From the NCBI GenBank assembly GCA_020632235.1, contig JACKFY010000002.1:11550-75549 (forward strand): a DNA stretch of 64,000 bases. Reading direction: 5' to 3'. Of the stretch, positions 1 to 20,817 are shown piece after piece. Position 1 is the stretch's first letter. Each line of letters opens with the position of its first letter. Source of the DNA: Pseudomonadales bacterium. Lineage in GTDB: Bacteria; Patescibacteriota; Microgenomatia; UBA1400; PJMF01. The notes under the pieces were generated by a model. It saw only the letters and a program-made list of their open reading frames with translations, made no database searches and was not told where the DNA came from. Both the position numbers and the translations under genes were made by a program.

Positions 1-1515
1 TCTTTAAAGGGTGGCTGCGTCTAAGCCTACCTCCTAGGTGTCTTTGGATACGAACTTCCTTTACCACTAAATGTACACTTTGAGACCTTATCTGTAGGTC
101 TGGTTTGTTTTCCTTTTGCTCCTGGAACTTAGCTCCCAGGTGCTGAGTGCCGTGAAACAACAAAAAGTATTCGGAGTTTGACTAGATGCTCGAGATTGCT
201 CCCGAGACACCCGATCAGTGCTCTACCCCTTCTTGTCTTAACACGACCCTATACCTAAATATATTTCAGGGAGAACCAGCTATCTCCGGGTTCGATTGGC
301 ATATTACCCCTTACCACAACTCATCCGAGCCCCTTGCAGCGGACACCGGTGCGGACCTCCCTCTGACTTTCGTCAGAGCTCATCCTGGTCATGGTAAGCT
401 CACCCGGTTTCGGGTCATTCAATAACTACTCTCTCACCACAAGTGGTGAGAGACGCCCTATTCAGGCTCGCTTTCACTACGGCTTCCCCGCGAAACGGGT
501 TAACCTAAAGCAGTTATCAAATACTCGCAGGCTCATTCTTCAATAGGCACGAGATTACCCCTCACCTTGTTTTCTGGTTTATCCAGACGACAAGGTGAGG
601 GGCTCTCTCTGATTGTTAGCAGATAATTTCAGATTCTATTTCACGGGGTCTTCCACCCTTCTTTTCACCTTTCCCTCACGGTACTCGTTCACTATCGGTC
701 TTGTTTGGTATTTAGCCTTGGAGTGTGGTCACCCCAGCTTCGGAAGGGAGTTTGCCGTCTCCCAACTTACTCAGGAACACTGTATGGCATGTCTTATTTT
801 CGTATACACGACTGTCACGTTCTTTGGTTGCGTATTCCACCGCATTCTACTAAGAAGACATATCCACTATTCAGGTCCTACAACACCCCTCACTCTTTCC
901 TTCCAATTCTTTTCAAGAGTTCTGTCCATCCTTTTGCTCGTTTTTTCAACGCTTTTTCTCTGCGTTGAGCATATTTTCGTGCCTCGTATGCTTCATAGTA
1001 CACCAGGCACCAGTCATTCGTTCGACTGGTCCATTTACTACATCCAGAGTTGTGTTCTGTGTAGCGTCGTCGTAAGTCTGAGGTTTGTCCCACATAATAA
1101 CGATCAATGGCTGGGCTGTACAACACATACATATAAAACATAAAAACAATATTAAAACAAAAAGATGTCAAAAACCTTACATTGAAAAGAAAAAGTGAGG
1201 GGTTTGGGCTTTTCCCTGTTCGCTCGTCGCTTACTAAGGGAATCTCTTACGATTTCTATTCCTCTGGGTACTTAGATATTTCAGTTCCCCAGGTTACCTT
1301 CCCTCACCTCTTAGCCTCGAATTTCTTCAAGAACAAAAGGTGAGGGATCCCTTGCATCTCTACAAGGGGGGTTACCCCATTCGGACACCGCCGGATCAAA
1401 GCTTGATGACAGCTCCCCGACGACTTTCGCGGTCAATTTGCGTCCTTCTTCGGCCAAACAAGCCAAGGCATCCATTATCTGCGTTACTTCACATAAATAT
1501 TGCGAAATTGAGCTT
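1..1515 (-). rRNA. rrl: 23S ribosomal RNA, 5' ~1.06-kb portion; the gene continues past the window start. Interrupted by a ~290-nt insertion.
   Basis: Reverse complement matches conserved 23S blocks in order. The 5' end GGATGCCTTGGC..GAAGGACG lies near 1500. GGGGAACTGAAATATCTAAGTACCC is at ~1210-1290. GACCGATAGTGAACGAGTACCGTGAGGGAAAGGTGAAAAGAA is at ~630-700. GGAGATAGCTGGTTCTCC and GCAGCCACCCTTTAAAGA are at 1-20. Spacing between the ~250 and ~390 equivalents is ~290 nt longer than in E. coli. Confidence 0.9.
890..1171 (-). CDS. GIY-YIG nuclease superfamily protein (UPF0213/YhbQ-like), encoded inside the 23S rRNA insertion
   Basis: 93-aa ORF with YYVGQTSDLRRRYTEHNSG...KWTS...WCLVYYE...KRAKGW, the GIY-YIG core pattern. 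Same strand as the 23S gene. Occupies almost the whole inserted segment. Confidence 0.65.
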   Translation of the reverse strand: MTSFCFNIVFMFYMYVLYSPAIDRYYVGQTSDLRRRYTEHNSGCSKWTSRTNDWCLVYYEAYEARKYAQRREKALKKRAKGWTELLKRIGRKE

Positions 1516-5504: not shown

Positions 5505-6625
5505 CTTCAGAAACGAAACGCACCACTTTGGTAAAATCAGCAGATGAAAAGTGGACATAAAAAAGGAACACACTTGTCTCTAGAGGAGCGGGTGGAAATA
5601 TACAAATTAAAGGAACAAGGCTTCTCAATTCGTAGGATTGGAAGAAAAATAGGTCGCAACCATAGTGTGGTCAGTCGAGAACTGTCTCGAAACTCCAAGC
5701 CATTCAGCAATGAGGGATACAAACCAGTTAAAGCACACACACTATCCAAACAGAGGACAAAGATGCAGCGCCAACAGGCGCCACTCAAAAATCCAGCAGT
5801 ATTTTTGTATGTAAGAGAGAAACTAAGGATAAAGTGGACGCCAGAACAAATAGCGGGAAGATTACCCATTGATCATCCAGGTGAAAGTATCAGCTATGAA
5901 ACCATCTACCAATACATCTATGGTTTGGGAAGAAGAGATACGCTGTGGCACTACTTGGTTCGAGGTCACAAGAAACGAAAACCAAAGAAAACAGGTGCTG
6001 AGACTAAAAAAGCATCTAAAATAAAAGGAGTGGAGTCAATAGAACATCGCCCCACAAAGGCAAACAACCGCAAGCAAGCCGGGCACCGGGAAACAGATCT
6101 GATGGAATCTCCAAGAGGCATAGGTGCGAGCGTTTCAGCTCATATCGAGAGAAAAACAAGATTTATCAAACTTGAAAAGCTTGAGAATAAGAAAGCTGCA
6201 ACCAAGCAAAAAAGTATGCAAAAAACATTAAAAAAGATACAATCTGTGAGTAAGTCAAGAGATCCCATAATTAAGTCAATGACCTATGATAATGGCTCTG
6301 AGAATACGCAGCATCAAGAACTAGCTAAAAACATGCACAAAGGGTTATGTGTGTTATCCCTACCATTCTTGGGAAAAAAGGATCTGTTGAAAACATGATT
6401 GGAAGAGTGAGGAGATTTATTCCTAAAGGGACAGACCTCACCACCGTTAGTGAAGTGTATCTCCAGCAAGTTGAGAATTGGATTAACAACGCTCCGCTTA
6501 AATGTCTGAACCATCTAACACCAAATGAGGCAATGGCGAGAGAAGTTAACAAGTACAAGTTTAATCACTACAGAAAGGTCTTAGACCAAAGTGGTGCATT
6601 TCCAAATTGAATTCGGGTTTCAGAG
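5505..6625 (+). mobile_element. IS30-family insertion sequence (~1.1 kb) with imperfect terminal inverted repeats
   Basis: Left end CTTCAGAAACGAAACGCACCACTTTGG (5505-5531). Right end CCAAAGTGGTGCATTTCC...GGGTTTCAGAG (6586-6625). The reverse complement shares the 12-nt GCACCACTTTGG core and a CTYCWGAAAC outer segment. Encloses the IS30 transposase reading frames. Confidence 0.65.
5544..6610 (+). pseudogene. IS30-family transposase, frameshifted (ORFs 5544-6398 and 6347-6610)
   Basis: N-terminal HTH (LSLEERVEIYKLKEQGFSIRRIGRKIGRNHSVVSRELSRN). DDE region: GHRETDLM, TYDNGSEN, NMIGRVRRFIPKGTDL. The PY.SW-like segment (YVCYPYHSWEK) reads in a third frame around 6340-6380 next to an A6 run. At least one frameshift, probably two. 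Confidence 0.75.
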
Positions 6626-10940: not shown

Positions 10941-12866
10941 ATGGTAAACGCCGTTGGTGGCACACCGCCCACCACCCCACCACCCACCCCGCCCTCGTCA
11001 AGTACTGGCGAAGATGTGGCGACCAACAATCAGCCATCGACGGACATCTCCAGCTCCGACACATCGAAGAGCGATGCGACAACAAGCAACATGCCTCAAC
11101 CGCAGGCTACTCCTCCTCTAGCGGAAACACCCACCCAACAACCAGTTCCTTCCCCCATACCCACAGTGGCAGCCCCTCTTCCCGCTATGCCACCACAACC
11201 TGGTAGTCAGCTGCCAATAAAAACCCTTCCCGCCGTACCACAAGCTACCGTTAGCCAACAACTAGGAACTAAAAAATCTCAGCCACAAGCTAACCCAACT
11301 CTGGCGAAAGCAACTGCTCCTCCTCCCAAAGAAAAAAAGAGTAAAAAATGGATACTTGCAGGTGCGTTTGCTGCTCTCATTCTCTTGATTGGCGGGATTG
11401 GTGGGTTTTTCCTGATGCAACAAAACCAGGACTTGAGAAACCAGGCAGAGACTATTCCTACTCCAACTCCAAAAATAGCAGTTGTGGGCAGCTCATGTAC
11501 AAAACGAGCATACAAAAGCACTGGTCCTGACAGCAACACTCCCACAAGCACCTCTGTCACCCAGTTTGAACAAGATGAAGCCATTATTTTTGAAATTGAT
11601 GTCACCCAGACACAAGGGCCTGTTCCCCTGATTATTGAAGACGACTACTCTCAATTTTTGGGTGCAGGATGGGATATTGACTCAGTTATGGTCAATGGCT
11701 CTGACACCTGCCAGCCTGACGCGCAGTTTAATGCTAGTAACCCTGGAAAGTACCGCTGTACCTGGCTCATGGCTTCTCCAGGAGCAACACTACCGCTTGT
11801 TATGAGGCTAGAGCCAACGGGTAATCAACTCCAGTCTCTTTCTACTGGCTCAGCACAAAAGCTGACCAACACCGTCAGGCTCATTCCGTGTGAATCATGT
11901 GGTACTGGTGGTATGGAACAGACGGGAGTAGGTGAGCAACCTACTCAAAGTGAAGGGGTGTGTTCAGCACAGATTGAGATAACTACCCCAACAGAGCCAA
12001 CACTCAGCTGTAACAGCGCCTGTACTCCAGGAGCGGTCACTGGCTCTCGCACCGATATGTGCGCCCAGCAACTTGGCGGAGGGTACTCTTGCGTGCAAGT
12101 ACTTGATAAACCAGAAGATCCTAACGAACCAACTCATCGTTGCCGACTCACCAACAACCCAACTGATGAGCAGTGCAAAGAGATAATCGTCATTAATCCA
12201 CCATCACCCAAACCAGCACCGCCCGCATGTAACAGCCTCTGTACTCCTAGTGAAGATCCAGAAAAAGACGAGTGCACGCTTAATCTTGGCTCACAGTATT
12301 TGTGTCTTGATGCTACAGGAAGCTCGACTAGTGAAATACTCAGTGAATATCGCTGTCGACTCAAAGCAAACCCCACAAATGAACAATGTGTTGACCCAAA
12401 TAGAAAAATGACCTGTAACAGCACCTGCACGCTCTCTCTTACCAATGATGAAGTAGATGAGTGCGAACAAGATTTGGGCAGTGAGTATGTCTGTGCAAAT
12501 GTTTCAAGCTCGACTGAAAAAATACTAACCCGTTGCCGACTCAAAGCAAACACGGGTGATGTTTCTTGCAAACAACAAACGGGGCCAACTGCGACTCCTT
12601 CCAGCGCGCCTTCTGCCAACCCCTCGGCAACTCCACAGACAAGCCCAGCTGTGAGTAGTACGCCGTCAGCTTCTCCAGATACCTCATCAAGCCAGAGCCC
12701 GAGTCCAACCACCGGTATTACCGGTACACAGCCATCACCTACTCCGTCAACACAACCCGTGTTACCGCAAGAGTTGCCACAGACAGGTGCATTTGACTCA
12801 TCAGTACTCCTTAAAGTAGGAATGGTGATAGTCACGCTAGGAGCAGCAATTTTGCTACTACTATAA
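10941..12866 (+). CDS. cell-surface protein: Pro/Thr-rich N-terminus, signal-anchor TM, four Cys-rich repeat modules, C-terminal LPQTG sortase sorting signal
   Basis: C-terminus LPQELPQTGAFDSSVLLKVGMVIVTLGAAILLLL (LPxTG motif, hydrophobic segment, end). Internal repeats of the form CNSxCTP...C...Y.C...YRCRLKANPT.EQC. The start may be an internal Met. Confidence 0.75.
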   Translation: MVNAVGGTPPTTPPPTPPSSSTGEDVATNNQPSTDISSSDTSKSDATTSNMPQPQATPPLAETPTQQPVPSPIPTVAAPLPAMPPQPGSQLPIKTLPAVPQATVSQQLGTKKSQPQANPTLAKATAPPPKEKKSKKWILAGAFAALILLIGGIGGFFLMQQNQDLRNQAETIPTPTPKIAVVGSSCTKRAYKSTGPDSNTPTSTSVTQFEQDEAIIFEIDVTQTQGPVPLIIEDDYSQFLGAGWDIDSVMVNGSDTCQPDAQFNASNPGKYRCTWLMASPGATLPLVMRLEPTGNQLQSLSTGSAQKLTNTVRLIPCESCGTGGMEQTGVGEQPTQSEGVCSAQIEITTPTEPTLSCNSACTPGAVTGSRTDMCAQQLGGGYSCVQVLDKPEDPNEPTHRCRLTNNPTDEQCKEIIVINPPSPKPAPPACNSLCTPSEDPEKDECTLNLGSQYLCLDATGSSTSEILSEYRCRLKANPTNEQCVDPNRKMTCNSTCTLSLTNDEVDECEQDLGSEYVCANVSSSTEKILTRCRLKANTGDVSCKQQTGPTATPSSAPSANPSATPQTSPAVSSTPSASPDTSSSQSPSPTTGITGTQPSPTPSTQPVLPQELPQTGAFDSSVLLKVGMVIVTLGAAILLLL

Positions 12867-12931
12867 ACAAAAAATACAACGTAGTATGAAACGAAAATAA
12901 GTACTAAATTGAAGTAAACGTCACATTTTTT

Positions 12932-14608
12932 ATGAACGTACAACAAACAAATACTAGTAAACCTCAACCTCCTTTGTACGGAGACGCAAGTGGTCCTACT
13001 GTCCAAACAGAAAAAGTGGTCAAAAACAGCAAAAAACCTCCTTCAAAGAAAAAAGTACTACAGCTTATTGTTGGATTTGTGTTCTTTATGCTCCTAGTAG
13101 GTGGCTCTTCAGTGGGGCTCTACTTGGCACAACAACAACAGGATGTCAGAAACCAAGCTGCAGCAGATTTGTGTGCCAATATCACCAATAATGTCATTGG
13201 CACTATCAGCAAACCAATCATAGAAAATACAGGCAGAGCTCTGGCAACTGTTCAAAACACCTCTACAGATTGTACCCACGAACTGTCTTTGATGGCCTTT
13301 GAAGTATATGATGACATGCAAGACCCCAACTGGCTCAACACTCAAGTTCTATTTGATAGTAGTACTGCAACTATTGCTCCAGGGGAAACGCTTATTTTAG
13401 ATGTTCGGCTTCCCTCTTGTAACTATCAGATTGACCTAGCAGAAGGAAAGCCGCTCGTACCACCCGATTACAGATCTTCATCCCTGCACTTGTTTGACTT
13501 TGCATTTGGCGGAGGTGCACTATGTGGCGCCCCATCTACTCCTACTCCATCGCCCCAAGTATCGTCTGCACCACTCACTTGTAACAGTGTGTGTCAGCAG
13601 GCAGACAAAGACCAATGTACAGCAAGCATGGGGCCAGAATACTCATGTGTCATGACTGACGGCTCTCGCACAGGACGATGCAGAAGAACCAGCAATCCAA
13701 GTAGTGAAAAATGTGAAGCGCCTACTATTGTCAGTCCCTCTCCCTCTTCTACCACCCCACAATGTAACTCCACCTGTACTCCAGAAAGTGCTAATGTTAA
13801 AGATACATGCGTGCTCAGTATGGGCTCAGCATATGAGTGTACTGTTATCACTAACGCAAATCTTGAAATAAAAGATGAGTATAGATGTAGATTGAAGACA
13901 AACCCAACTAGCACTACGTGTCAAGCTCCTGCCTCGAATGAACCGATTGTCTGCAACAGTGTGTGTGATCCTCTAGCAGATAAATGTGGCGAGGCTGTAG
14001 GAGAAGGACATGCGTGCATCAACACCGCTACCGGCACTAATCGTGCTCAGTATCGCTGTCGAAGAGAAACCAACCCAACCAGCAGCACTTGTTCTCTACC
14101 TACTAGTGTCTCTCCGAGTCCAAGCGTAAGCCCTTCGGTGAGTCCAAGTATCTCTCCTTCTCCTAGCCCTACACCTACCTATACCTGCAACAGTACCTGT
14201 ACGGGTGACAGTCAGTGTCACAGCGCTAATGCAAGCTACGTCTGCTACAAAGAAGGTAGCAACACTACGGGAGTCTGTAGAATGGGTAACAACCCAAGTA
14301 ACACAAGTTGTCAGGCAGCCCAAGGTACCTATGCGTGTAACTCTACTTGCTCTGCAGATGCACAGTGTCAAACAATAGGTAGTGGCTACATCTGTCATGA
14401 GGGTGCATGTAGGATGAGTGCCTATCCAACCCAAACCAATTGTCAGGCACCGGTCGTAGCCCAGCAGCCTGTCTATCAGACACCGACTCCTGCCCAACCA
14501 GTCCTTCCTGAAGAACTACCCCAGACTGGCGCCTTTGACTTCTCACTGGTAGCAAAGATTGGTGTGGCTACCCTTGCACTGGGTGCTGCGCTACTACTTC
14601 TACTGTAA
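12932..14608 (+). CDS. paralogous cell-surface protein with ~6 Cys-rich repeat modules and a C-terminal LPQTG sorting signal
   Basis: N-terminus KKKVLQLIVGFVFFMLLVGG...QDVRNQA mirrors the upstream gene. C-terminus LPEELPQTGAFDFSLVAKIGVATLALGAALLLLL. Confidence 0.75.
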   Translation: MNVQQTNTSKPQPPLYGDASGPTVQTEKVVKNSKKPPSKKKVLQLIVGFVFFMLLVGGSSVGLYLAQQQQDVRNQAAADLCANITNNVIGTISKPIIENTGRALATVQNTSTDCTHELSLMAFEVYDDMQDPNWLNTQVLFDSSTATIAPGETLILDVRLPSCNYQIDLAEGKPLVPPDYRSSSLHLFDFAFGGGALCGAPSTPTPSPQVSSAPLTCNSVCQQADKDQCTASMGPEYSCVMTDGSRTGRCRRTSNPSSEKCEAPTIVSPSPSSTTPQCNSTCTPESANVKDTCVLSMGSAYECTVITNANLEIKDEYRCRLKTNPTSTTCQAPASNEPIVCNSVCDPLADKCGEAVGEGHACINTATGTNRAQYRCRRETNPTSSTCSLPTSVSPSPSVSPSVSPSISPSPSPTPTYTCNSTCTGDSQCHSANASYVCYKEGSNTTGVCRMGNNPSNTSCQAAQGTYACNSTCSADAQCQTIGSGYICHEGACRMSAYPTQTNCQAPVVAQQPVYQTPTPAQPVLPEELPQTGAFDFSLVAKIGVATLALGAALLLLL

Positions 14609-14611
14609 AGA

Positions 14612-14770
14612 CTATCCCCTCCTTCACCATAGAATGGTGAAGGAGGGGTGTTTTAGCACTTCCTTTGTAAGGGAAGACATCCCGACTTTAGTCGCGATAG
14701 AAGGGTTTACCTCTGTTATTTCGATCCGCCGGCTGGCGGATACAAATCTGCATGGAACAGAGATCTCTCC
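14612..14770. repeat. composite hairpin-repeat element (family member)
   Basis: Modules shared with other copies: CACCATAGAATGGTG + GGGGTGTTTT; CCTTTGTAAGGG; GAAGGGTTTACC; reverse-complemented CCGCCAGCCGGCGGATCGAAA motif. Confidence 0.5.
14613..14650 (+). terminator. intrinsic terminator-like hairpin (CCCCTCCTTCACC-ATAGAA-TGGTGAAGGAGGGG, then TGTTTT); also the first module of a composite repeat element
   Basis: 13-bp GC-rich stem, followed by a U-rich tract, 5 nt after the stop of the preceding gene. Confidence 0.55.
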
Positions 14771-14824
14771 TGTCCACGTTATTCCAGTTGAAATGGCAAG
14801 AAAAAAGGACGGCAAAAGCACTAT

Positions 14825-14950
14825 GCGTCTACTAGGACTTACCGATGCTGCGATCGGCACAGGCTTCTCGCCCTACTAGCCGCGTGTGCGTCTACTAGGA
14901 CTTACCGATGCTGCGATCGGCACAGGCTTCTCGCCCTACTAGCCGCGTGT
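14825..14950. repeat. two tandem 63-bp direct repeats, each beginning with the last 15 nt of the adjacent tRNA (GCGTCTACTAGGACT) and containing the palindrome CCGATGCTGCGATCGG
   Basis: Exact duplication at 14825-14887 and 14888-14950. A third copy of the 15-nt start is the 3' end of tRNA-Ile itself (14951 onward). Confidence 0.85.
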
Positions 14951-15023
14951 GCGTCTACTAGGACTCGAACCTAGAACCCCCAAGGTATAAGCTTGGTGCT
15001 CTCACCAATTGAGCTATAGACGC
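14950..15023 (-). tRNA. tRNA-Ile, anticodon UAU (reads AUA)
   Basis: Reverse complement: GCGTCTA-TA-GCTC-AATTGGTGA-GAGC-A-CCAAG-CTTATAC-CTTGG-GGGTT-CTAGG-TTCGAGT-CCTAG-TAGACGC-A. Canonical cloverleaf with anticodon loop C-U-UAU-A-C. Confidence 0.75.
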
Positions 15024-18486: not shown

Positions 18487-20817
18487 CTACAAATTACTCC
18501 TGCTTTGTATCTCTGCCTCCACCATCTCTTTATCTTTACCATACTTCAGGCGCGAGAGCTGCTTTATCATCTCGGCTAGCTTGGGGTTCATCTTGGCTTT
18601 AATTGCATCCATGTCTTTCATCAAACTCATGCTAAAGGGTGGCACTGGCTCGTTCTTCACAATGGTACGAATGTAAACGTGGTACTTCTCAATGTTGGTC
18701 AGGTCGCCCTCATTAAAGGTGGGTGCAAACTCGTGTTGCAAAAAGTTAGCATCAGGCACACCCACACGAAATGACACAATCGTACCCACGTTGCCAAACA
18801 CAGCGTTTTTCACATCTTCGTCAATCTGGCTCACAAACTGGTTGGCCACAATCAGATTGAGGCGATACTTCCTAGCCTCCGAGAGAATAACCGCAAAATC
18901 TTCGGTGGCGTAGTTTTGAAACTCATCCACATATAAAAAGAAGTCTTCGCGCTGATCCATCGGCACATCTTGCCTACTCATAGCAGCTGTCAGTACCTTT
19001 GGTACTAAGATTAAACCTAAAAACTTAGCGTCTTCTTCTCCCAGAATTCCTTTTGAAAGGTTGCATAAAATAATCTTTTTCTCATCCATGGCCTTTCTAA
19101 AGTTAAAAGCACTATGAGGCTGGCCAATAATGTTACGCATAGTTTTGTTGGTTACAAATCTGCCAAACTTCGAGACGATGTAGTCCAATACCTCAGACTT
19201 ATGAAAATCACTGGTTTGGGCAATTTGGTCTGTCCAGTAGCGCTTCACCACCGGGTCTTTGACGTACGGCAGTAGCTCGTTAACATACTTGCTATCGGTG
19301 AGCACGCGCACTAGCTCTATAAACGTACTCCCCTTTTTGTACATGATAGTGAGCATGGCATTGCGAATAGCGTGCTCAAACCGCGGTCCAATGATACCCG
19401 TGCGATGTGGATCATACAGCTTGTACATCAAACCAATGATGGAACTCACCACAAAGTGACGCTGCTCCTCAGTGTCTGCCTCCATCATGTTCATTCCCAT
19501 TGGTCGGGTCAAATCTGAGGGGTTAAAGTAAATAACATCTTCAGCACGCTCTGGCGGCATCAGCTGCAGAATGTCTTCGACAAACTCACCGTGGGGGTCA
19601 ACCGCGCACACACCGTATCCAGATTCAATATCCTGCATAATCATTTCTTTTAAAAACTCTGACTTGCCCGTACCAGTTTTCCCAATGATGTACATATGCC
19701 GCCTTCTGTCATCCAGCGACATATGCACCTCGCGCTCTTGGCCACGATAGAGTGATTTACCCAAAAATAACCCTTTGGTAGGGATCATGCTTGGTGCCGG
19801 AGCATTTTTAGCATTCAGCCACTTAATATGATGTGTTTCTACTGTTTTATTCGGAAAGTGAAAGATGGTAGCTAGCTCTTCTGTATTTAAAATAGCAGTG
19901 TTTCGATTAAAAAACGGCATGTAGCGATACAAAAAATCAATCATAAAAATGTGTTTTAAAAACACCCTACCCTTGTCAAACCCGTTGTAGGCAGATGAAA
20001 ACTGGGCAAAAGCGCCCGTGATGTTGTTGAGGTGCGACTCAGCAGAGTACTCATTGGTGGACGACACCACCACGCGTATAGCCACCCGAAATCCAGGTTT
20101 TTCTGTCTTGGTGGCGATCGCCTCCATCTCTTTTGGATCGTGTCCATAGGTCGCTTTTTCCGGATCAGCCTCTTTTTTCTTTTCGTTTTGAATGTGTGAT
20201 CTACCCTGGTCTCGCCACTTTTTGCCCTCGGGGCGAAGTAAAATCTGGACAATTGCGCCCTCACCGTCATCAAGTTTGGAAAGGGCCGAGGTAATGAGTG
20301 ACAGCCCGTCGGTGGGCAAGTCTTTGTAGGTCTTGATGGGGTAGTAATTGGCTTTTTCTAGCTTGAGTGCGGCAAAGTCAACCCGCCCCTTTTCACTAAA
20401 AATATTCACTTCGTCGCGCTCCGAGATATCAGCGTTGGGGTACGCCCCGTGAATCTGCTTTTCTACCAGGTCGCGGATTTTTTTGGGACAGCTGATGTAA
20501 AAACTAATCTCTTCTTTCAGTGCCACTACCTCAAACGAAAAGACATCTTCTGGTTTTAAAAATGAAAAAACACCACTGTGTTTGATGGAGTACAGCCCAG
20601 CAAACATCTGTTCGGCAGCGTCGATCTTGATTTCGTTGTCTTTGGGCAGGCGCACCAGCAGTGAAACAAAATCAAGCGCATACTCTTCGCGGTTTCTGTG
20701 TTTATACCACTGCAGCAACATGTAGAAAAACACCGCGATGATGGCAGCAAAAATAAGAAGGAAAAACACCAGACTGGCTATTTCTAAAATCTGGGATGCT
20801 ATATTTTGTGTATCCAT
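18487..20817 (-). CDS. membrane-anchored P-loop ATPase of the FtsK/HerA (AAA_10 / T4SS coupling-protein-like) type
   Basis: 776 aa. One N-terminal TM. Walker A MYIIGKTGTGKSEF, then CAVDPHGEF, then Walker B FFLYVDEFQNY, then RKYRLNLIVANQ. No VirB4-type CagE N-terminal domain. Confidence 0.6.
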   Translation of the reverse strand: MDTQNIASQILEIASLVFFLLIFAAIIAVFFYMLLQWYKHRNREEYALDFVSLLVRLPKDNEIKIDAAEQMFAGLYSIKHSGVFSFLKPEDVFSFEVVALKEEISFYISCPKKIRDLVEKQIHGAYPNADISERDEVNIFSEKGRVDFAALKLEKANYYPIKTYKDLPTDGLSLITSALSKLDDGEGAIVQILLRPEGKKWRDQGRSHIQNEKKKEADPEKATYGHDPKEMEAIATKTEKPGFRVAIRVVVSSTNEYSAESHLNNITGAFAQFSSAYNGFDKGRVFLKHIFMIDFLYRYMPFFNRNTAILNTEELATIFHFPNKTVETHHIKWLNAKNAPAPSMIPTKGLFLGKSLYRGQEREVHMSLDDRRRHMYIIGKTGTGKSEFLKEMIMQDIESGYGVCAVDPHGEFVEDILQLMPPERAEDVIYFNPSDLTRPMGMNMMEADTEEQRHFVVSSIIGLMYKLYDPHRTGIIGPRFEHAIRNAMLTIMYKKGSTFIELVRVLTDSKYVNELLPYVKDPVVKRYWTDQIAQTSDFHKSEVLDYIVSKFGRFVTNKTMRNIIGQPHSAFNFRKAMDEKKIILCNLSKGILGEEDAKFLGLILVPKVLTAAMSRQDVPMDQREDFFLYVDEFQNYATEDFAVILSEARKYRLNLIVANQFVSQIDEDVKNAVFGNVGTIVSFRVGVPDANFLQHEFAPTFNEGDLTNIEKYHVYIRTIVKNEPVPPFSMSLMKDMDAIKAKMNPKLAEMIKQLSRLKYGKDKEMVEAEIQSRSNL

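What the first reader, a model, noticed from the sequence alone, without database searches (positions are those of the whole stretch)
10941..14608. Tandem paralogous sortase-substrate surface proteins built from a six-Cys ~45-aa repeat module
Two adjacent genes (641 and 558 aa) share one architecture: a short cytoplasmic N-terminus, a signal-anchor TM, 4-6 repeats of C-x3-C...C...(Y/F)xC...YRCR(L/R)KxNPTxxxC, a Pro/Ser/Thr-rich stalk, and LPQTG plus a hydrophobic tail. The repeat matches no domain I can name; it looks like a small disulfide-rich module. Presenting both an N-terminal membrane anchor and a C-terminal LPxTG signal is unusual. In an episymbiotic CPR organism such proteins are candidate host-attachment factors.
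Basis: partly seen in the sequence, partly recalled or inferred. Interest (0 to 1): 0.6.

Follow-up and report, generated by a model that had tools for sequence, protein, structure and literature searches.

The report
Cysteine-repeat surface proteins of a CPR bacterium
Two neighbouring genes of an uncultured Woesebacteria bacterium encode cell-surface proteins whose stalk is built from a small six-cysteine module absent from the domain libraries searched, and they end in a sortase-like LPQTG signal that lacks the usual basic tail, so they are plausible but unproven attachment proteins.

Summary
The two ORFs are real (A 10941-12866, 641 aa; B 12932-14608, 558 aa) and are old paralogs (29-31% identity). 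Each has a cytoplasmic N-terminus (136 aa in A, about 44 aa in B), one TM helix followed by a conserved QQxQDxRNQA motif, a unique head domain, six-Cys repeats (3 in A, 5 in B, not 4-6), Pro/Ser/Thr linkers and LPQTG plus 25 residues. The repeat matches nothing above threshold in Pfam, NCBIfam or PDB. It folds confidently (pLDDT 92.9), with only weak knottin-like hints. A profile finds 570 clusters among 1.84 billion proteins; every taxonomically informative label is Patescibacteria/Microgenomates. Family genes form variable arrays of 1-3 genes (1-10 repeats each) in a fixed slot between PGK and tRNA-Ile(UAU) in about 35 genomes. The C-terminal signal has invariant L, P and G, ends 25 residues after Gly in 93 of 115 proteins, and lacks a basic tail in 113 of 115. 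The clade has a sortase, co-resident with a family member in one 1.17 Mb genome. None was found in this window or shown for this MAG, and the sortase's own neighbours use a different, canonical signal. Most likely these are wall-anchored, adhesin-like proteins with a new disulfide-rich stalk module. Host attachment is inference only.

The parts
10941..12866 (+). Gene A, 641 aa: surface protein with 3 six-Cys repeats
   Evidence: ORF. Identical gene called on NCBI contig JAGQLT010000004.1. Paralog of B.
10941..11348 (+). A: cytoplasmic N-terminal region, aa 1-136, low complexity (P 22%, T 14%, S 11%), begins MVNAV and ends in a KKSKK cluster
   Evidence: The M[IVL]NA start is shared with at least 22 of the 170 family proteins, which supports this start codon.
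11349..11447 (+). A: TM helix (aa 137-159) plus conserved post-TM motif QQNQDLRNQA (aa 160-169)
   Evidence: Hydropathy. Motif (D, R and A are fixed by the regex used to find the motif; beyond them Q at -6 is strongly conserved in the 73 leaders).
11478..11990 (+). A: head domain (aa 180-350), Ig-like beta-sandwich, distant DUF11/CLIPPER-like (CnaA-like)
   Evidence: AF2 pLDDT 81, pTM 0.79. Foldseek PDB: 35 hits at E<=1e-3, including 9ifr CLIPPER (E=1.4e-4, TMt 0.68), BcpA pilin, integrin leg domains and cohesins. Profile hit to 9ifr at E=0.0043. No Pfam hit on A itself.
12009..12176 (+). A repeat 1 (aa 357-412, 56 aa, six Cys)
12228..12389 (+). A repeat 2 (aa 430-483, 54 aa)
12414..12569 (+). 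A repeat 3 (aa 492-543, 52 aa)
12570..12773 (+). A: Ser/Pro/Thr-rich stalk (aa 544-611; S 24%, P 22%, T 19%)
12774..12863 (+). A: C-terminal signal, LPQTG (aa 612-616) plus 25 residues (AFDSSVLLKVGMVIVTLGAAILLLL), no basic tail
12932..14608 (+). Gene B, 558 aa: surface protein with 5 six-Cys repeats; identical to NCBI 'hypothetical protein KC686_00400'
13064..13159 (+). B: TM helix (aa 45-66) plus post-TM motif QQQQDVRNQA (aa 67-76)
13160..13573 (+). B: head domain (aa 77-214), fold unknown, four Cys, no detectable relatives
   Evidence: No relatives among the 170 family proteins. No PDB sequence hit. No Pfam or NCBIfam hit.
13580..13714 (+). B repeat 1 (aa 217-261)
13763..13921 (+). B repeat 2 (aa 278-330)
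13952..14092 (+). B repeat 3 (aa 341-387), followed by the SP-rich linker aa 388-418
14186..14311 (+). B repeat 4 (aa 419-460); this is the unit modelled by AF2
   Evidence: pLDDT 92.9; helix at model residues 11-15, hairpin at 21-24/32-36; model numbering starts at aa 416.
14336..14443 (+). B repeat 5 (aa 469-504, shortest unit at 36 aa)
14516..14605 (+). B: C-terminal signal, LPQTG (aa 529-533) plus 25 residues, no basic tail
14616..14648 (.). Perfect 15-bp-stem hairpin (9 G-C pairs) directly after the gene B stop; likely terminator closing the A-B unit
14949..15023 (-). tRNA-Ile(UAU): conserved right-hand boundary of the variable surface-protein slot
   Evidence: Present between the array and the MFP gene in all 14 loci checked.

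Best explanation
A and B are exported, modular cell-surface proteins of a Woesebacteria (CPR, Microgenomates) cell, built like Gram-positive fibrillar adhesins.

Proposed mechanism:
1. A lineage-typical N-terminal leader inserts the protein through the Sec pathway. The leader is a long cytoplasmic n-region, one TM helix and a QxQDxRxQA motif.
2. A variable head is carried at the N-terminal end, which becomes the distal end once the C-terminus is anchored. In A the head is a DUF11/CLIPPER-like Ig sandwich. In B the fold is unknown.
3. The head sits on a stalk of 3-5 copies of a compact 36-56-aa six-cysteine module, spaced by Pro/Ser/Thr linkers. The module is most likely stabilised by three disulfides, made by the DsbA/MdbA-like plus VKOR machinery reported to be common in CPR.
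4. The C-terminal LPQTG + 25-residue hydrophobic segment is a sorting signal. A sortase-type transpeptidase cleaves it between T and G and links the protein to peptidoglycan.
5. The genes lie in a chromosomal slot (PGK ... tRNA-Ile) that is fixed across the clade but variable in gene number, repeat number and head type. That pattern is expected of diversifying surface-recognition proteins.

Shown here: architecture, paralogy, family-wide conservation of the module and of both terminal signals, the confident fold, the clade restriction, the synteny, and the existence of a sortase in the clade.

Inferred: disulfide bonding and its connectivity, sortase cleavage and wall linkage, leader cleavage, and adhesive function.
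For: - **Architecture and paralogy:**
- **Module:** six invariant Cys plus a near-invariant Arg in 104 units. AF2 gives pLDDT 92.9. 536 of 568 detected units keep all six Cys. The profile finds 570 clusters at E<=1e-3 in 1.84e9 representatives.
- **C-terminal signal:** LPx[TSA]G plus a hydrophobic end in 115 of 170 family proteins. L, P and G are invariant, and the length after Gly is 25 in 93 of 115.
- **Sortase in the clade:** PF04203 at 70 bits (cutoff 26.6) in L025, about 1 kb from a family array. There are 134 homologs, some named sortase in Woesebacteria and Pacebacteria. One lies on the same 1.17 Mb contig as a family member.
- **Literature:** sortase is near-ubiquitous in Microgenomates, and DsbA/MdbA-like plus VKOR are common in CPR (PMC6744442).
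- **Head of A:** adhesin or pilin-type Ig fold. CLIPPER/DUF11 is typical of fibrillar adhesin stalks (bioRxiv 10.1101/2025.04.25.650565).
- **Variable arrays in a fixed slot:** about 35 loci.
Against: - No sortase in the 64 kb window, and none demonstrated for this MAG.
- The signal lacks the positively charged tail that defines classical cell-wall sorting signals (113 of 115).
- It does not hit the LPXTG-anchor HMMs in Pfam or NCBIfam.
- The clade sortase is not assignable to classes A-F. In three genomes it sits next to a substrate with a different, canonical signal, [YM]A[ED]TG + TM + KKK. It may not be the enzyme for LPx[TSA]G.
- A sortase lies near the array in only 1 of about 35 loci.
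- Disulfide bonding is assumed.
- No known adhesive domain was detected, and the head of B is uncharacterised.
Confidence: 0.55

Rival explanations
1. The proteins stay integral membrane proteins. The C-terminal 18-residue hydrophobic stretch is a permanent tail anchor. The conserved QPxLPxELPxTG stretch is a juxtamembrane structural or recognition element, or the target of a non-sortase processing enzyme. In that case the protein is held at one or both ends in the membrane and is never wall-linked.
For: - No basic tail in 113 of 115 proteins, and a fixed 25-residue end. This is unlike every tripartite sorting signal I know of, from my own knowledge (LPXTG, PEP-CTERM, PGF-CTERM, GlyGly-CTERM).
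- No hit to the LPXTG-anchor models.
- The clade sortase's neighbours use a different motif with a basic tail.
- A sister architecture with the same module is an ordinary type-I membrane protein, with a TM and a cytoplasmic tail carrying SMxERxKxKGI (about 35 of 170). So membrane display of the module does occur.
Against: - Invariance of exactly L, P and G, with T/S/A at position 4, is the sortase recognition pattern and is hard to explain for a passive linker.
- Sortase is near-ubiquitous in the clade (PMC6744442).
Confidence: 0.25
2. The six-Cys units are functional modules and not a passive stalk. They could be knottin-type protease inhibitors (carboxypeptidase-inhibitor-like), or small ligand- or metal-binding units displayed in tandem on the cell surface.
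For: - Weak but repeated resemblance to cystine-knot mini-proteins: Pfam CarbpepA_inh in 16 of 104 units (best E 0.042), potato carboxypeptidase inhibitor chains at E about 0.3 and designed cysteine-knot peptides, and Evasin-3 at TM 0.5, E=4.
- The first three Cys spacings (x3, x5) equal those of the potato inhibitor (its spacing recalled from my own knowledge).
- The near-invariant Arg after Cys5 and the N-P motif could form a binding surface.
Against: - All similarities are below every significance threshold, and full-length A and B give no such hits.
- The variable loop between Cys4 and Cys5 (4-18 aa, and a ~230-aa domain insertion in some relatives) and the position between head and anchor fit a spacer or scaffold role.
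- Connectivity could not be determined.
Confidence: 0.12
3. The genes are functionally coupled to the adjacent MFP-ABC-MacB/FtsX transporter, which would export, extract or release them.
For: The array lies immediately upstream of YknX-like MFP + ABC + MacB/FtsX in the window and in nearly every related locus, even where the upstream context differs (L004, L005).
Against: - A strong hairpin follows gene B.
- A tRNA-Ile gene, in either orientation, separates the array from the transporter in all 14 loci checked.
- The whole block from S1/PGK to DUF192/LGT is syntenic, so the adjacency reflects general conservation of gene order.
- MacB-type pumps are not known to secrete 60-kDa proteins (own knowledge).
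Confidence: 0.05

Closest known systems
LPXTG cell-wall-anchored surface proteins and fibrillar adhesins of Gram-positive bacteria (MSCRAMM-type; sortase A/E substrates)
   Same: N-terminal export signal, distal head domain, repeated stalk domains, Pro/Ser/Thr-rich wall-spanning region, LPxTG pentapeptide, then a hydrophobic segment at the extreme C-terminus. The head of A has the CnaA/DUF11-type Ig fold common in such proteins.
   Different: - No positively charged tail; the protein ends exactly 25 residues after Gly.
- Position 4 can be T, S or A, and there is an extended conserved QPxLPxE prefix.
- The leader has a 40-136-aa n-region and a conserved post-TM QxQDxRxQA motif.
- The stalk is a six-Cys mini-module of about 45 aa instead of Ig-like, Rib, G5 or SHIRT-type domains.
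- The LPXTG-anchor HMMs do not match.
Knottin / inhibitor-cystine-knot mini-proteins (potato carboxypeptidase inhibitor PF02977; tick Evasin-3)
   Same: Size (about 36-45 aa core), six Cys, first spacings C-x3-C-x5-C (inhibitor spacing from my own knowledge), a small beta-hairpin core, and weak profile and fold similarity.
   Different: All matches are sub-threshold (E 0.04-4). The module is bacterial, tandemly repeated and embedded in a large anchored protein. It has a long variable Cys4-Cys5 loop and a conserved C-R-L-x2-N-P motif. Knotted connectivity is not shown.
DUF11 / CLIPPER domain (PF01345; PDB 9ifr)
   Same: The head of A and the heads of several relatives share the beta-sandwich fold, the pattern K...D.LP...TNxV, and flanking Cys. 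One relative (P0022) carries a precomputed PF01345 hit.
   Different: A itself does not reach any Pfam score. Identity to aligned relatives is 12-26%. An isopeptide bond is not shown. The domain occurs once as a head, not as a tandem stalk.
Other C-terminal protein-sorting signals (PEP-CTERM/exosortase, PGF-CTERM/archaeosortase, GlyGly-CTERM/rhombosortase). Comparison from my own knowledge; not tested here
   Same: A short conserved motif followed by a single hydrophobic helix at the extreme C-terminus, on a lineage-restricted set of surface proteins.
   Different: Those signals end in a basic cluster and have different motifs. Here the motif is sortase-like and there is no basic cluster. No exosortase or rhombosortase gene was seen in the loci examined, but they were not searched for specifically.

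Membership tests
Sortase-dependent cell-wall sorting signal (LPXTG anchor; Pfam PF00746 / NCBIfam TIGR01167) | LPXTG-type pentapeptide within about 35 residues of the C-terminus | tested here: met
   LPQTG at aa 612 of 641 (A) and aa 529 of 558 (B). LPx[TSA]G in 115 of 170 relatives, with L, P and G invariant.
Sortase-dependent cell-wall sorting signal (LPXTG anchor; Pfam PF00746 / NCBIfam TIGR01167) | Hydrophobic membrane-spanning segment after the motif | tested here: met
   Kyte-Doolittle mean above 2 over the last ~19 residues of both proteins.
Sortase-dependent cell-wall sorting signal (LPXTG anchor; Pfam PF00746 / NCBIfam TIGR01167) | Positively charged tail after the hydrophobic segment | tested here: not met
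   Both proteins end ...LLLLL. 113 of 115 relatives have no K or R in the last 6 residues.
Sortase-dependent cell-wall sorting signal (LPXTG anchor; Pfam PF00746 / NCBIfam TIGR01167) | Match to the curated anchor HMMs | tested here: not met
   No such hit at E<=1 in Pfam or NCBIfam for A or B.
Sortase-dependent cell-wall sorting signal (LPXTG anchor; Pfam PF00746 / NCBIfam TIGR01167) | A sortase encoded in the same genome | tested here: inconclusive
   None in the 64 kb window. No KC686-tagged hit among the listed 120 of 134 sortase homologs. At clade level: a sortase next to an array in L025, on the same contig as a family member in BroJett025, and near-ubiquitous in Microgenomates per PMC6744442. 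The whole MAG could not be fetched.
Sortase-dependent cell-wall sorting signal (LPXTG anchor; Pfam PF00746 / NCBIfam TIGR01167) | Cleavage between T and G and amide linkage to peptidoglycan | not testable with these tools
   Requires biochemistry or proteomics.
Fibrillar adhesin-like proteins (as described in PMC8286594 and PMC9210967; abstracts only) | Tandem stalk domains | tested here: met
   3 and 5 tandem six-Cys modules with PST linkers. The stalk domain is not one of the catalogued ones.
Fibrillar adhesin-like proteins (as described in PMC8286594 and PMC9210967; abstracts only) | Recognisable adhesive domain | tested here: inconclusive
   No Pfam adhesive domain. The head of A has a generic Ig/CnaA-like fold. 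The head of B is unknown.
Knottin / carboxypeptidase A inhibitor family (PF02977) | Significant HMM or structure match | tested here: not met
   Best per-unit E 0.042, against a gathering threshold not reached by any unit. PDB profile E about 0.3. Foldseek E>=1.
Knottin / carboxypeptidase A inhibitor family (PF02977) | Cystine-knot connectivity I-IV, II-V, III-VI | not testable with these tools
   Model coordinates are not exposed. Co-loss analysis was uninformative because 536 of 568 units keep all six Cys.
DUF11 / CLIPPER (PF01345), head of protein A only | Pfam HMM match above the gathering score | tested here: not met
   No hit for A at E<=1. The related protein P0022 has PF01345.
DUF11 / CLIPPER (PF01345), head of protein A only | CnaA-like beta-sandwich fold | tested here: met
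   AF2 pLDDT 81. 9ifr at E=1.4e-4, TMt 0.68. Profile E=0.0043.
DUF11 / CLIPPER (PF01345), head of protein A only | Lys-Asn isopeptide with catalytic Asp | tested here: inconclusive
   The alignment keeps an invariant Asp (D55), an N-terminal Lys and a TNxV Asn in most rows. With 8 sequences at 12-26% identity the register is uncertain.

The most novel reading that the evidence does not exclude
The leader (long n-region + TM + QxQDxRxQA), the six-Cys module and the tail (QPxLPxELPx[TSA]G + exactly 25 residues, no charge) together mark a Microgenomates-specific surface-display pathway distinct from classical sortase anchoring. It would be served by a dedicated or unconventional transpeptidase that needs no charged retention signal. 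The PGK-tRNA-Ile slot would then be a diversifying host- or partner-recognition locus whose head domains determine what these ultra-small cells attach to.
Probability: 0.15. Interest if true: 0.75.

Novelty: new variant of a known kind. Interest (0 to 1): 0.45.

Why it matters
CPR/Patescibacteria make up a large share of bacterial diversity, yet outside Saccharibacteria almost nothing is known about how they contact partners. This family offers several concrete handles:
- an undescribed, confidently folding domain family that could be added to Pfam or InterPro;
- a clade-wide sorting signal that departs from the textbook LPXTG rule requiring a basic tail, which is testable with one recombinant sortase and two peptides;
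- a fixed genomic address (PGK ... tRNA-Ile(UAU)) where surface-protein diversity can be read directly from metagenomes.

If the heads mediate attachment, this locus would be a marker for host range in Microgenomates. If not, it is still a useful annotation for several hundred 'hypothetical proteins'.

Tried and rejected
- **Exact look-up by window coordinates:** looking up protein B by its window DNA reference (stop codon excluded) found nothing. The same protein looked up as P0001 worked.
- **C-terminal tail profile:** the first version was too short for the tool. The 46-aa version gave no significant hit among 5.8e9 proteins, because the profile is too short and too hydrophobic.
- **GTDB scan:** A tighter 8-sequence set worked, but its pattern (WLK[AT]GL..) finds only the canonical-tail subfamily. 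The 29 loci are therefore a lower bound, biased toward Pacebacteria-like genomes.
- **Disulfide connectivity:** coordinates are not exposed. Inference from co-loss of Cys failed because units are almost never degenerate.
- **Head domains:** no relatives of either head exist among the 170 family proteins by phmmer.
- **MacB-transporter coupling:** considered because of the striking synteny. Rejected on the terminator plus the intervening tRNA gene.
- **Recent tandem duplication or DNA-level repeat instability:** rejected. Only short codon-level matches at 65-86% identity link the units, and A and B are about 30% identical.
- **Sortase adjacent to the array as a rule:** rejected. It occurs in 1 of about 35 loci.
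- **Literature:** searches for LPXTG + Microgenomates, and for cysteine-rich surface proteins in Patescibacteria, returned nothing relevant.

Full report
**1. What is in the sequence**

ORF listing shows two adjacent plus-strand ORFs exactly as reported. A lies at 10941-12866 (641 aa) and B at 12932-14608 (558 aa), separated by 65 bp. The same two genes are called on NCBI contig JAGQLT010000004.1 of assembly GCA_020429115.1. B is recorded there as 'hypothetical protein KC686_00400 [Candidatus Woesebacteria bacterium]'. NCBI taxonomy places this in the Patescibacteria group, Microgenomates group.

The window is 99.8-99.98% identical to that 20 kb contig and extends beyond it on both sides.

A and B are paralogs but old ones. 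BLASTP gives E=1e-33 at 29-31% identity, collinear from the TM segment to the C-terminus. At the DNA level only short motif-coding stretches (TGT AAC AGC ...; CGN TGC CGA CTC ...) recur, at 65-86% identity. This is not a recent duplication or an unstable DNA repeat.

**2. Anatomy**

Protein A:
- aa 1-136: Pro/Thr/Ser-rich and presumably cytoplasmic. It begins MVNAV and ends in KEKKSKK.
- aa 137-159: the only internal hydrophobic helix.
- aa 160-169: QQNQDLRNQA.
- aa ~180-350: head domain.
- aa 357-412, 430-483, 492-543: three six-Cys units.
- aa 544-611: Ser/Pro/Thr stalk of 68 aa.
- aa 612-616: LPQTG, then 25 residues ending LLLL.

Protein B:
- aa 1-44: N-terminal region.
- aa 45-66: TM helix.
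- aa 67-76: QQQQDVRNQA.
- aa 77-214: head domain.
- aa 217-261, 278-330, 341-387, 419-460, 469-504: five units, with an SP-rich linker between units 3 and 4.
- A short Q/P/T linker, LPQTG at aa 529, then 25 residues ending LLLLL.

The long N-terminus of A is not a start-codon artefact. At least 22 of the 170 collected family proteins begin M[IVL]NA like A, and the median pre-TM length among the 73 leaders found is 41 aa, with a maximum of 168.

**3. The six-Cys module**

I extracted 105 units from A, B and 30 homologs and aligned 104 of them. The alignment has six invariant Cys and a near-invariant Arg after Cys5. The consensus is T-x2-C-N-S-x-C-x-T-N-x-Q-C-x3-N-x2-Y-x-C-x(4-18)-C-R-L-x2-N-P-x-S-x2-C. 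Spacings are 3 / 5-12 / 5-12 / 4-18 / 10.

*No library match.* Pfam and NCBIfam give no hit on the full proteins even at E<=1. Scanning each unit at E<=10 yields only sub-threshold, mutually inconsistent hits: CarbpepA_inh 16 of 104, DUF7107 15, Dumpy_DPY 12, WAP, EGF_3. A profile search of PDB sequences gives potato carboxypeptidase inhibitor at E about 0.3 and designed cysteine-knot peptides.

*Assessment.* The module is a real, compact, undescribed domain with only a hint of knottin-like character. Its disulfide connectivity could not be read because coordinates are not exposed. Evolutionary co-loss is uninformative because 536 of 568 detected units keep all six Cys.

*A tolerant loop.* In P0004, P0016, P0023 and P0026 a ~230-aa propeller-like domain is inserted between Cys4 and Cys5. 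The profile then detects the two halves separately. This shows that the hairpin loop is an exposed, tolerant site.

**4. Distribution and architectures**

The profile finds 570 representative clusters at E<=1e-3 (257 at E<=1e-10) among 1.84 billion 50%-identity representatives. This is a small, restricted family. All taxonomically informative source names and record titles are Woesebacteria, Pacebacteria/Paceibacterota, Microgenomates or 'Patescibacteria group'. Some GTDB titles say Pseudomonadales, Limisphaerales or Methylococcaceae. Two of the 'Pseudomonadales' records carry isolate names containing PATE, one of them on a ~1.1 Mb contig, and the contigs with enough flank share the same Patescibacteria-type synteny. 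These titles look like mislabels.

Among the 170 collected proteins there are three architectures:
- 115 have LPx[TSA]G plus a hydrophobic end.
- About 35 have three units followed by a TM helix and a cytoplasmic tail with a conserved SMxERxKxKGI motif.
- About 10 end in a different Cys-containing domain (...AQCRxC...).

The module is therefore a mobile extracellular building block. Repeat number by regex ranges from 1 to 8 in this set, and up to 10 in the GTDB loci.

**5. Heads**

Neither head has a detectable relative among the 170 family members. These are the variable parts of the proteins.

By eye, and in a MAFFT alignment, the head of A shares the pattern of the DUF11-like heads of relatives: an N-terminal Cys and Lys, IVFxIxV, an invariant Asp, TNxV, and a C-terminal Cys. 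With that shallow alignment AF2 gives an all-beta sandwich (pLDDT 81, pTM 0.79).

Foldseek returns 35 PDB hits at E<=1e-3. They include integrin leg domains, the BcpA pilin, cohesins and the CLIPPER domain 9ifr (E=1.4e-4, TMt 0.68). The sequence profile also hits 9ifr, at E=0.0043. CLIPPER is the renamed DUF11, a CnaA-like domain typical of fibrillar-adhesin stalks and often cross-linked by an isopeptide bond (bioRxiv 10.1101/2025.04.25.650565).

The head of B remains unassigned.

**6. The terminal signals**

*C-terminus.* Across relatives the consensus is QPxLPxELPx[TSA]G - ~7 residues - W[LF]KAGLxxLGxGAxLLLLL. L, P and G are invariant. Position 3 is mostly Q or E, and position 4 is T, S or A. 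The protein ends 25 residues after Gly in 93 of 115 cases, with a range of 24-28. There is no Lys or Arg in the last six residues in 113 of 115. This is a sortase-type pentapeptide on a non-canonical tail.

*N-terminus.* I recovered 73 leaders using a regex that itself requires Q, D/E, R and A in the pattern Q-[DE]-x-R-x2-A directly after the TM helix. The fixity of R and A is therefore built into the search. Beyond that, Q at position -6 (61 of 73) and D over E (63 to 10) are strongly preferred.

All genes of the syntenic arrays carry this leader, including members without the module. So does an unrelated 957-aa SdrD_B/DUF1565 protein in L038. It is a lineage-wide export leader, not a second anchor peculiar to this family. 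Whether signal peptidase removes it cannot be decided here.

In the 64 kb window only A and B carry either signal.

**7. Sortase**

No sortase is encoded in the window. I checked by motif scans, Pfam scans of 30 further ORFs, and tblastn with 120 clade sortases.

Among 35 related loci, one (L025, HK-STAS-PATE-16) has a 198-aa ORF with TLYTC about 1 kb downstream of the array. It is a genuine sortase (PF04203, 70 bits against a cutoff of 26.6). It reaches none of NCBIfam's class A-F thresholds.

Its 134 homologs include 'sortase [Candidatus Woesebacteria bacterium]' (MBP7842385.1, accession) and a Pacebacteria sortase. One, BroJett025_03550, lies on the same 1.17 Mb contig (BOKR01000001.1) as an 8-repeat family member. 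This demonstrates co-occurrence in one genome. Méheust et al. 2019 report sortase as near-ubiquitous in Microgenomates, and DsbA/MdbA-like plus VKOR disulfide machinery as common in CPR (PMC6744442).

Two caveats apply:
- No KC686-tagged sortase appeared among the hits, so presence in this fragmentary MAG is unproven.
- In L025, L037 and L038 the sortase sits beside a conserved secreted protein ending [YM]A[ED]TG + TM + KKK(D/QEK). That is a canonical signal with a basic tail and Ala instead of Pro. The one sortase type identified may therefore serve that substrate and not LPx[TSA]G.

**8. Genomic context**

The array occupies a fixed slot: x201(-) S1(-) PGK(+) [1-3 family genes] tRNA-Ile(UAU) MFP ABC MacB/FtsX small-protein TrwB/DUF87(-) x233(-) DUF192(-). 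This order holds in the window and in almost all of the 34 related loci with enough flank.

Gene number, repeat number, head type and even a transposase insertion (L001) vary within the slot.

The adjacency to the MacB-type transporter (Pfam: HlyD_3, ABC_tran, MacB_PCD/FtsX) at first suggested coupling. However, a perfect 15-bp hairpin follows gene B, and a tRNA-Ile gene in either orientation intervenes in all 14 loci checked. I treat the adjacency as conserved gene order, not as an operon.

**9. Interpretation**

The best-supported reading (confidence about 0.55) is a pair of exported, C-terminally anchored, fibrillar-adhesin-like surface proteins. Their variable heads are held away from the cell by a stalk of a new disulfide-rich mini-domain plus PST linkers. 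They are anchored through a sortase-like but non-canonical signal.

The rivals, in order of weight:
- Permanent membrane anchoring without sortase processing (about 0.25).
- The module acting as a functional inhibitor or binding unit and not a spacer (about 0.12).
- Coupling to the MacB transporter (about 0.05).

Adhesion to a host cell is an inference from architecture and from the locus variability. Nothing here tests it, and no host is established for Woesebacteria in what I examined.

**10. Novelty and score**

The kind of system, LPxTG-type modular surface proteins, is well known. Four things are new relative to the libraries and literature searched (Pfam 2025, NCBIfam 2026, PDB 2026):
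- the six-Cys module as a domain family;
- the tail-less, fixed-length sorting signal;
- the conserved post-TM leader motif;
- the fixed variable slot.

I rate this a new variant of a known kind, with interest 0.45. It is useful and testable, and moderately surprising to a specialist mainly because of the missing basic tail. No unexpected function or mechanism has been demonstrated.

Noticed in passing
window 14824-14965 (and tRNA at 14949-15023, minus strand): A perfect 63-bp tandem repeat (2.3 copies) abuts and overlaps the end of the tRNA-Ile(UAU) gene. The otherwise near-identical NCBI contig is 63 bp shorter here, so copy number differs between assemblies. This could be an att-like duplication at a tRNA or simple slippage.
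   Followed up: partly
window 14949-15023; L001, L004-L006, L011, L012, L014, L016, L017, L022, L029, L033, L034: A tRNA-Ile with anticodon UAU is conserved between the surface-protein array and the MFP/MacB operon in all 14 loci checked. Its orientation is inverted in three of them. From my own knowledge, tRNA-Ile(UAU) is an uncommon way for bacteria to read AUA.
   Followed up: partly
P0030, P0031, P0098, P0108, P0113 and about 30 others (family proteins, not in the window): A second architecture of the same six-Cys module: three units, then a TM helix and a cytoplasmic tail with a conserved SMxERxKxKGI(x)PP motif near the C-terminus. The motif's function is unknown.
   Followed up: no
P0004, P0016, P0023, P0026 (relatives): A domain of about 230 aa with propeller-like internal repeats (GSGxITSFSAF...VRGGKxW) is inserted inside one module between Cys4 and Cys5, splitting the unit into CCCC and CC halves.
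   Followed up: partly
L025 10656-11456; L037 4653-5936; L038 6668-7804: The clade's sortase gene is flanked by a conserved secreted protein with a classical signal peptide, an ICH motif near the N-terminus, and a C-terminal [YM]A[ED]TG + TM + KKK signal. This is probably the sortase's cognate substrate.
   Followed up: partly
L038 7947-10820: An unrelated 957-aa protein (SdrD_B, CarboxypepD_reg, DUF1565) starts with the same TM + QTQDVRSRA leader. This indicates a general, undescribed export-leader motif in these bacteria.
   Followed up: partly
window 39459-64000 and 18487-20817: A Gram-positive-type type IV secretion-like cluster: two T4SS_pilin-like small proteins among about ten small ORFs, most with signal-peptide-like hydrophobic N-termini, a 1236-aa Cys-rich protein with an SLT_3 lysozyme-like domain, PrgI, and a 1291-aa M23 peptidase protein. 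A separate TrwB/DUF87 coupling-type ATPase is part of the conserved synteny block.
   Followed up: no
window 1-1498, 1808-1881, 5544-6398: The window starts inside a 23S rRNA gene (minus strand), followed by a tRNA. An IS30-like transposase ORF (my reading of its N-terminal sequence; not scanned against any library) ends just before position 6541, where the NCBI MAG contig begins. The insertion sequence probably broke that assembly.
   Followed up: no
L007, L009, L012, L013, L017, L018, L020, L022, L023, L025, L027, L029, L030, L032, L033: GTDB/INSDC record titles call these contigs 'Pseudomonadales', 'Limisphaerales' or 'Methylococcaceae'. They carry the same Patescibacteria-type synteny. Two of the 'Pseudomonadales' records have isolate names containing PATE, one on a ~1.1 Mb contig. 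These are likely taxonomic mislabels in the public records.
   Followed up: no
window 10941-10955 and relatives' N-termini: The extreme N-terminus M-[IVL]-N-A is conserved in at least 22 of the 170 family proteins, including A (MVNAV), although the following 40-130 residues are low-complexity. It may be a cytoplasmic recognition or processing motif.
   Followed up: no
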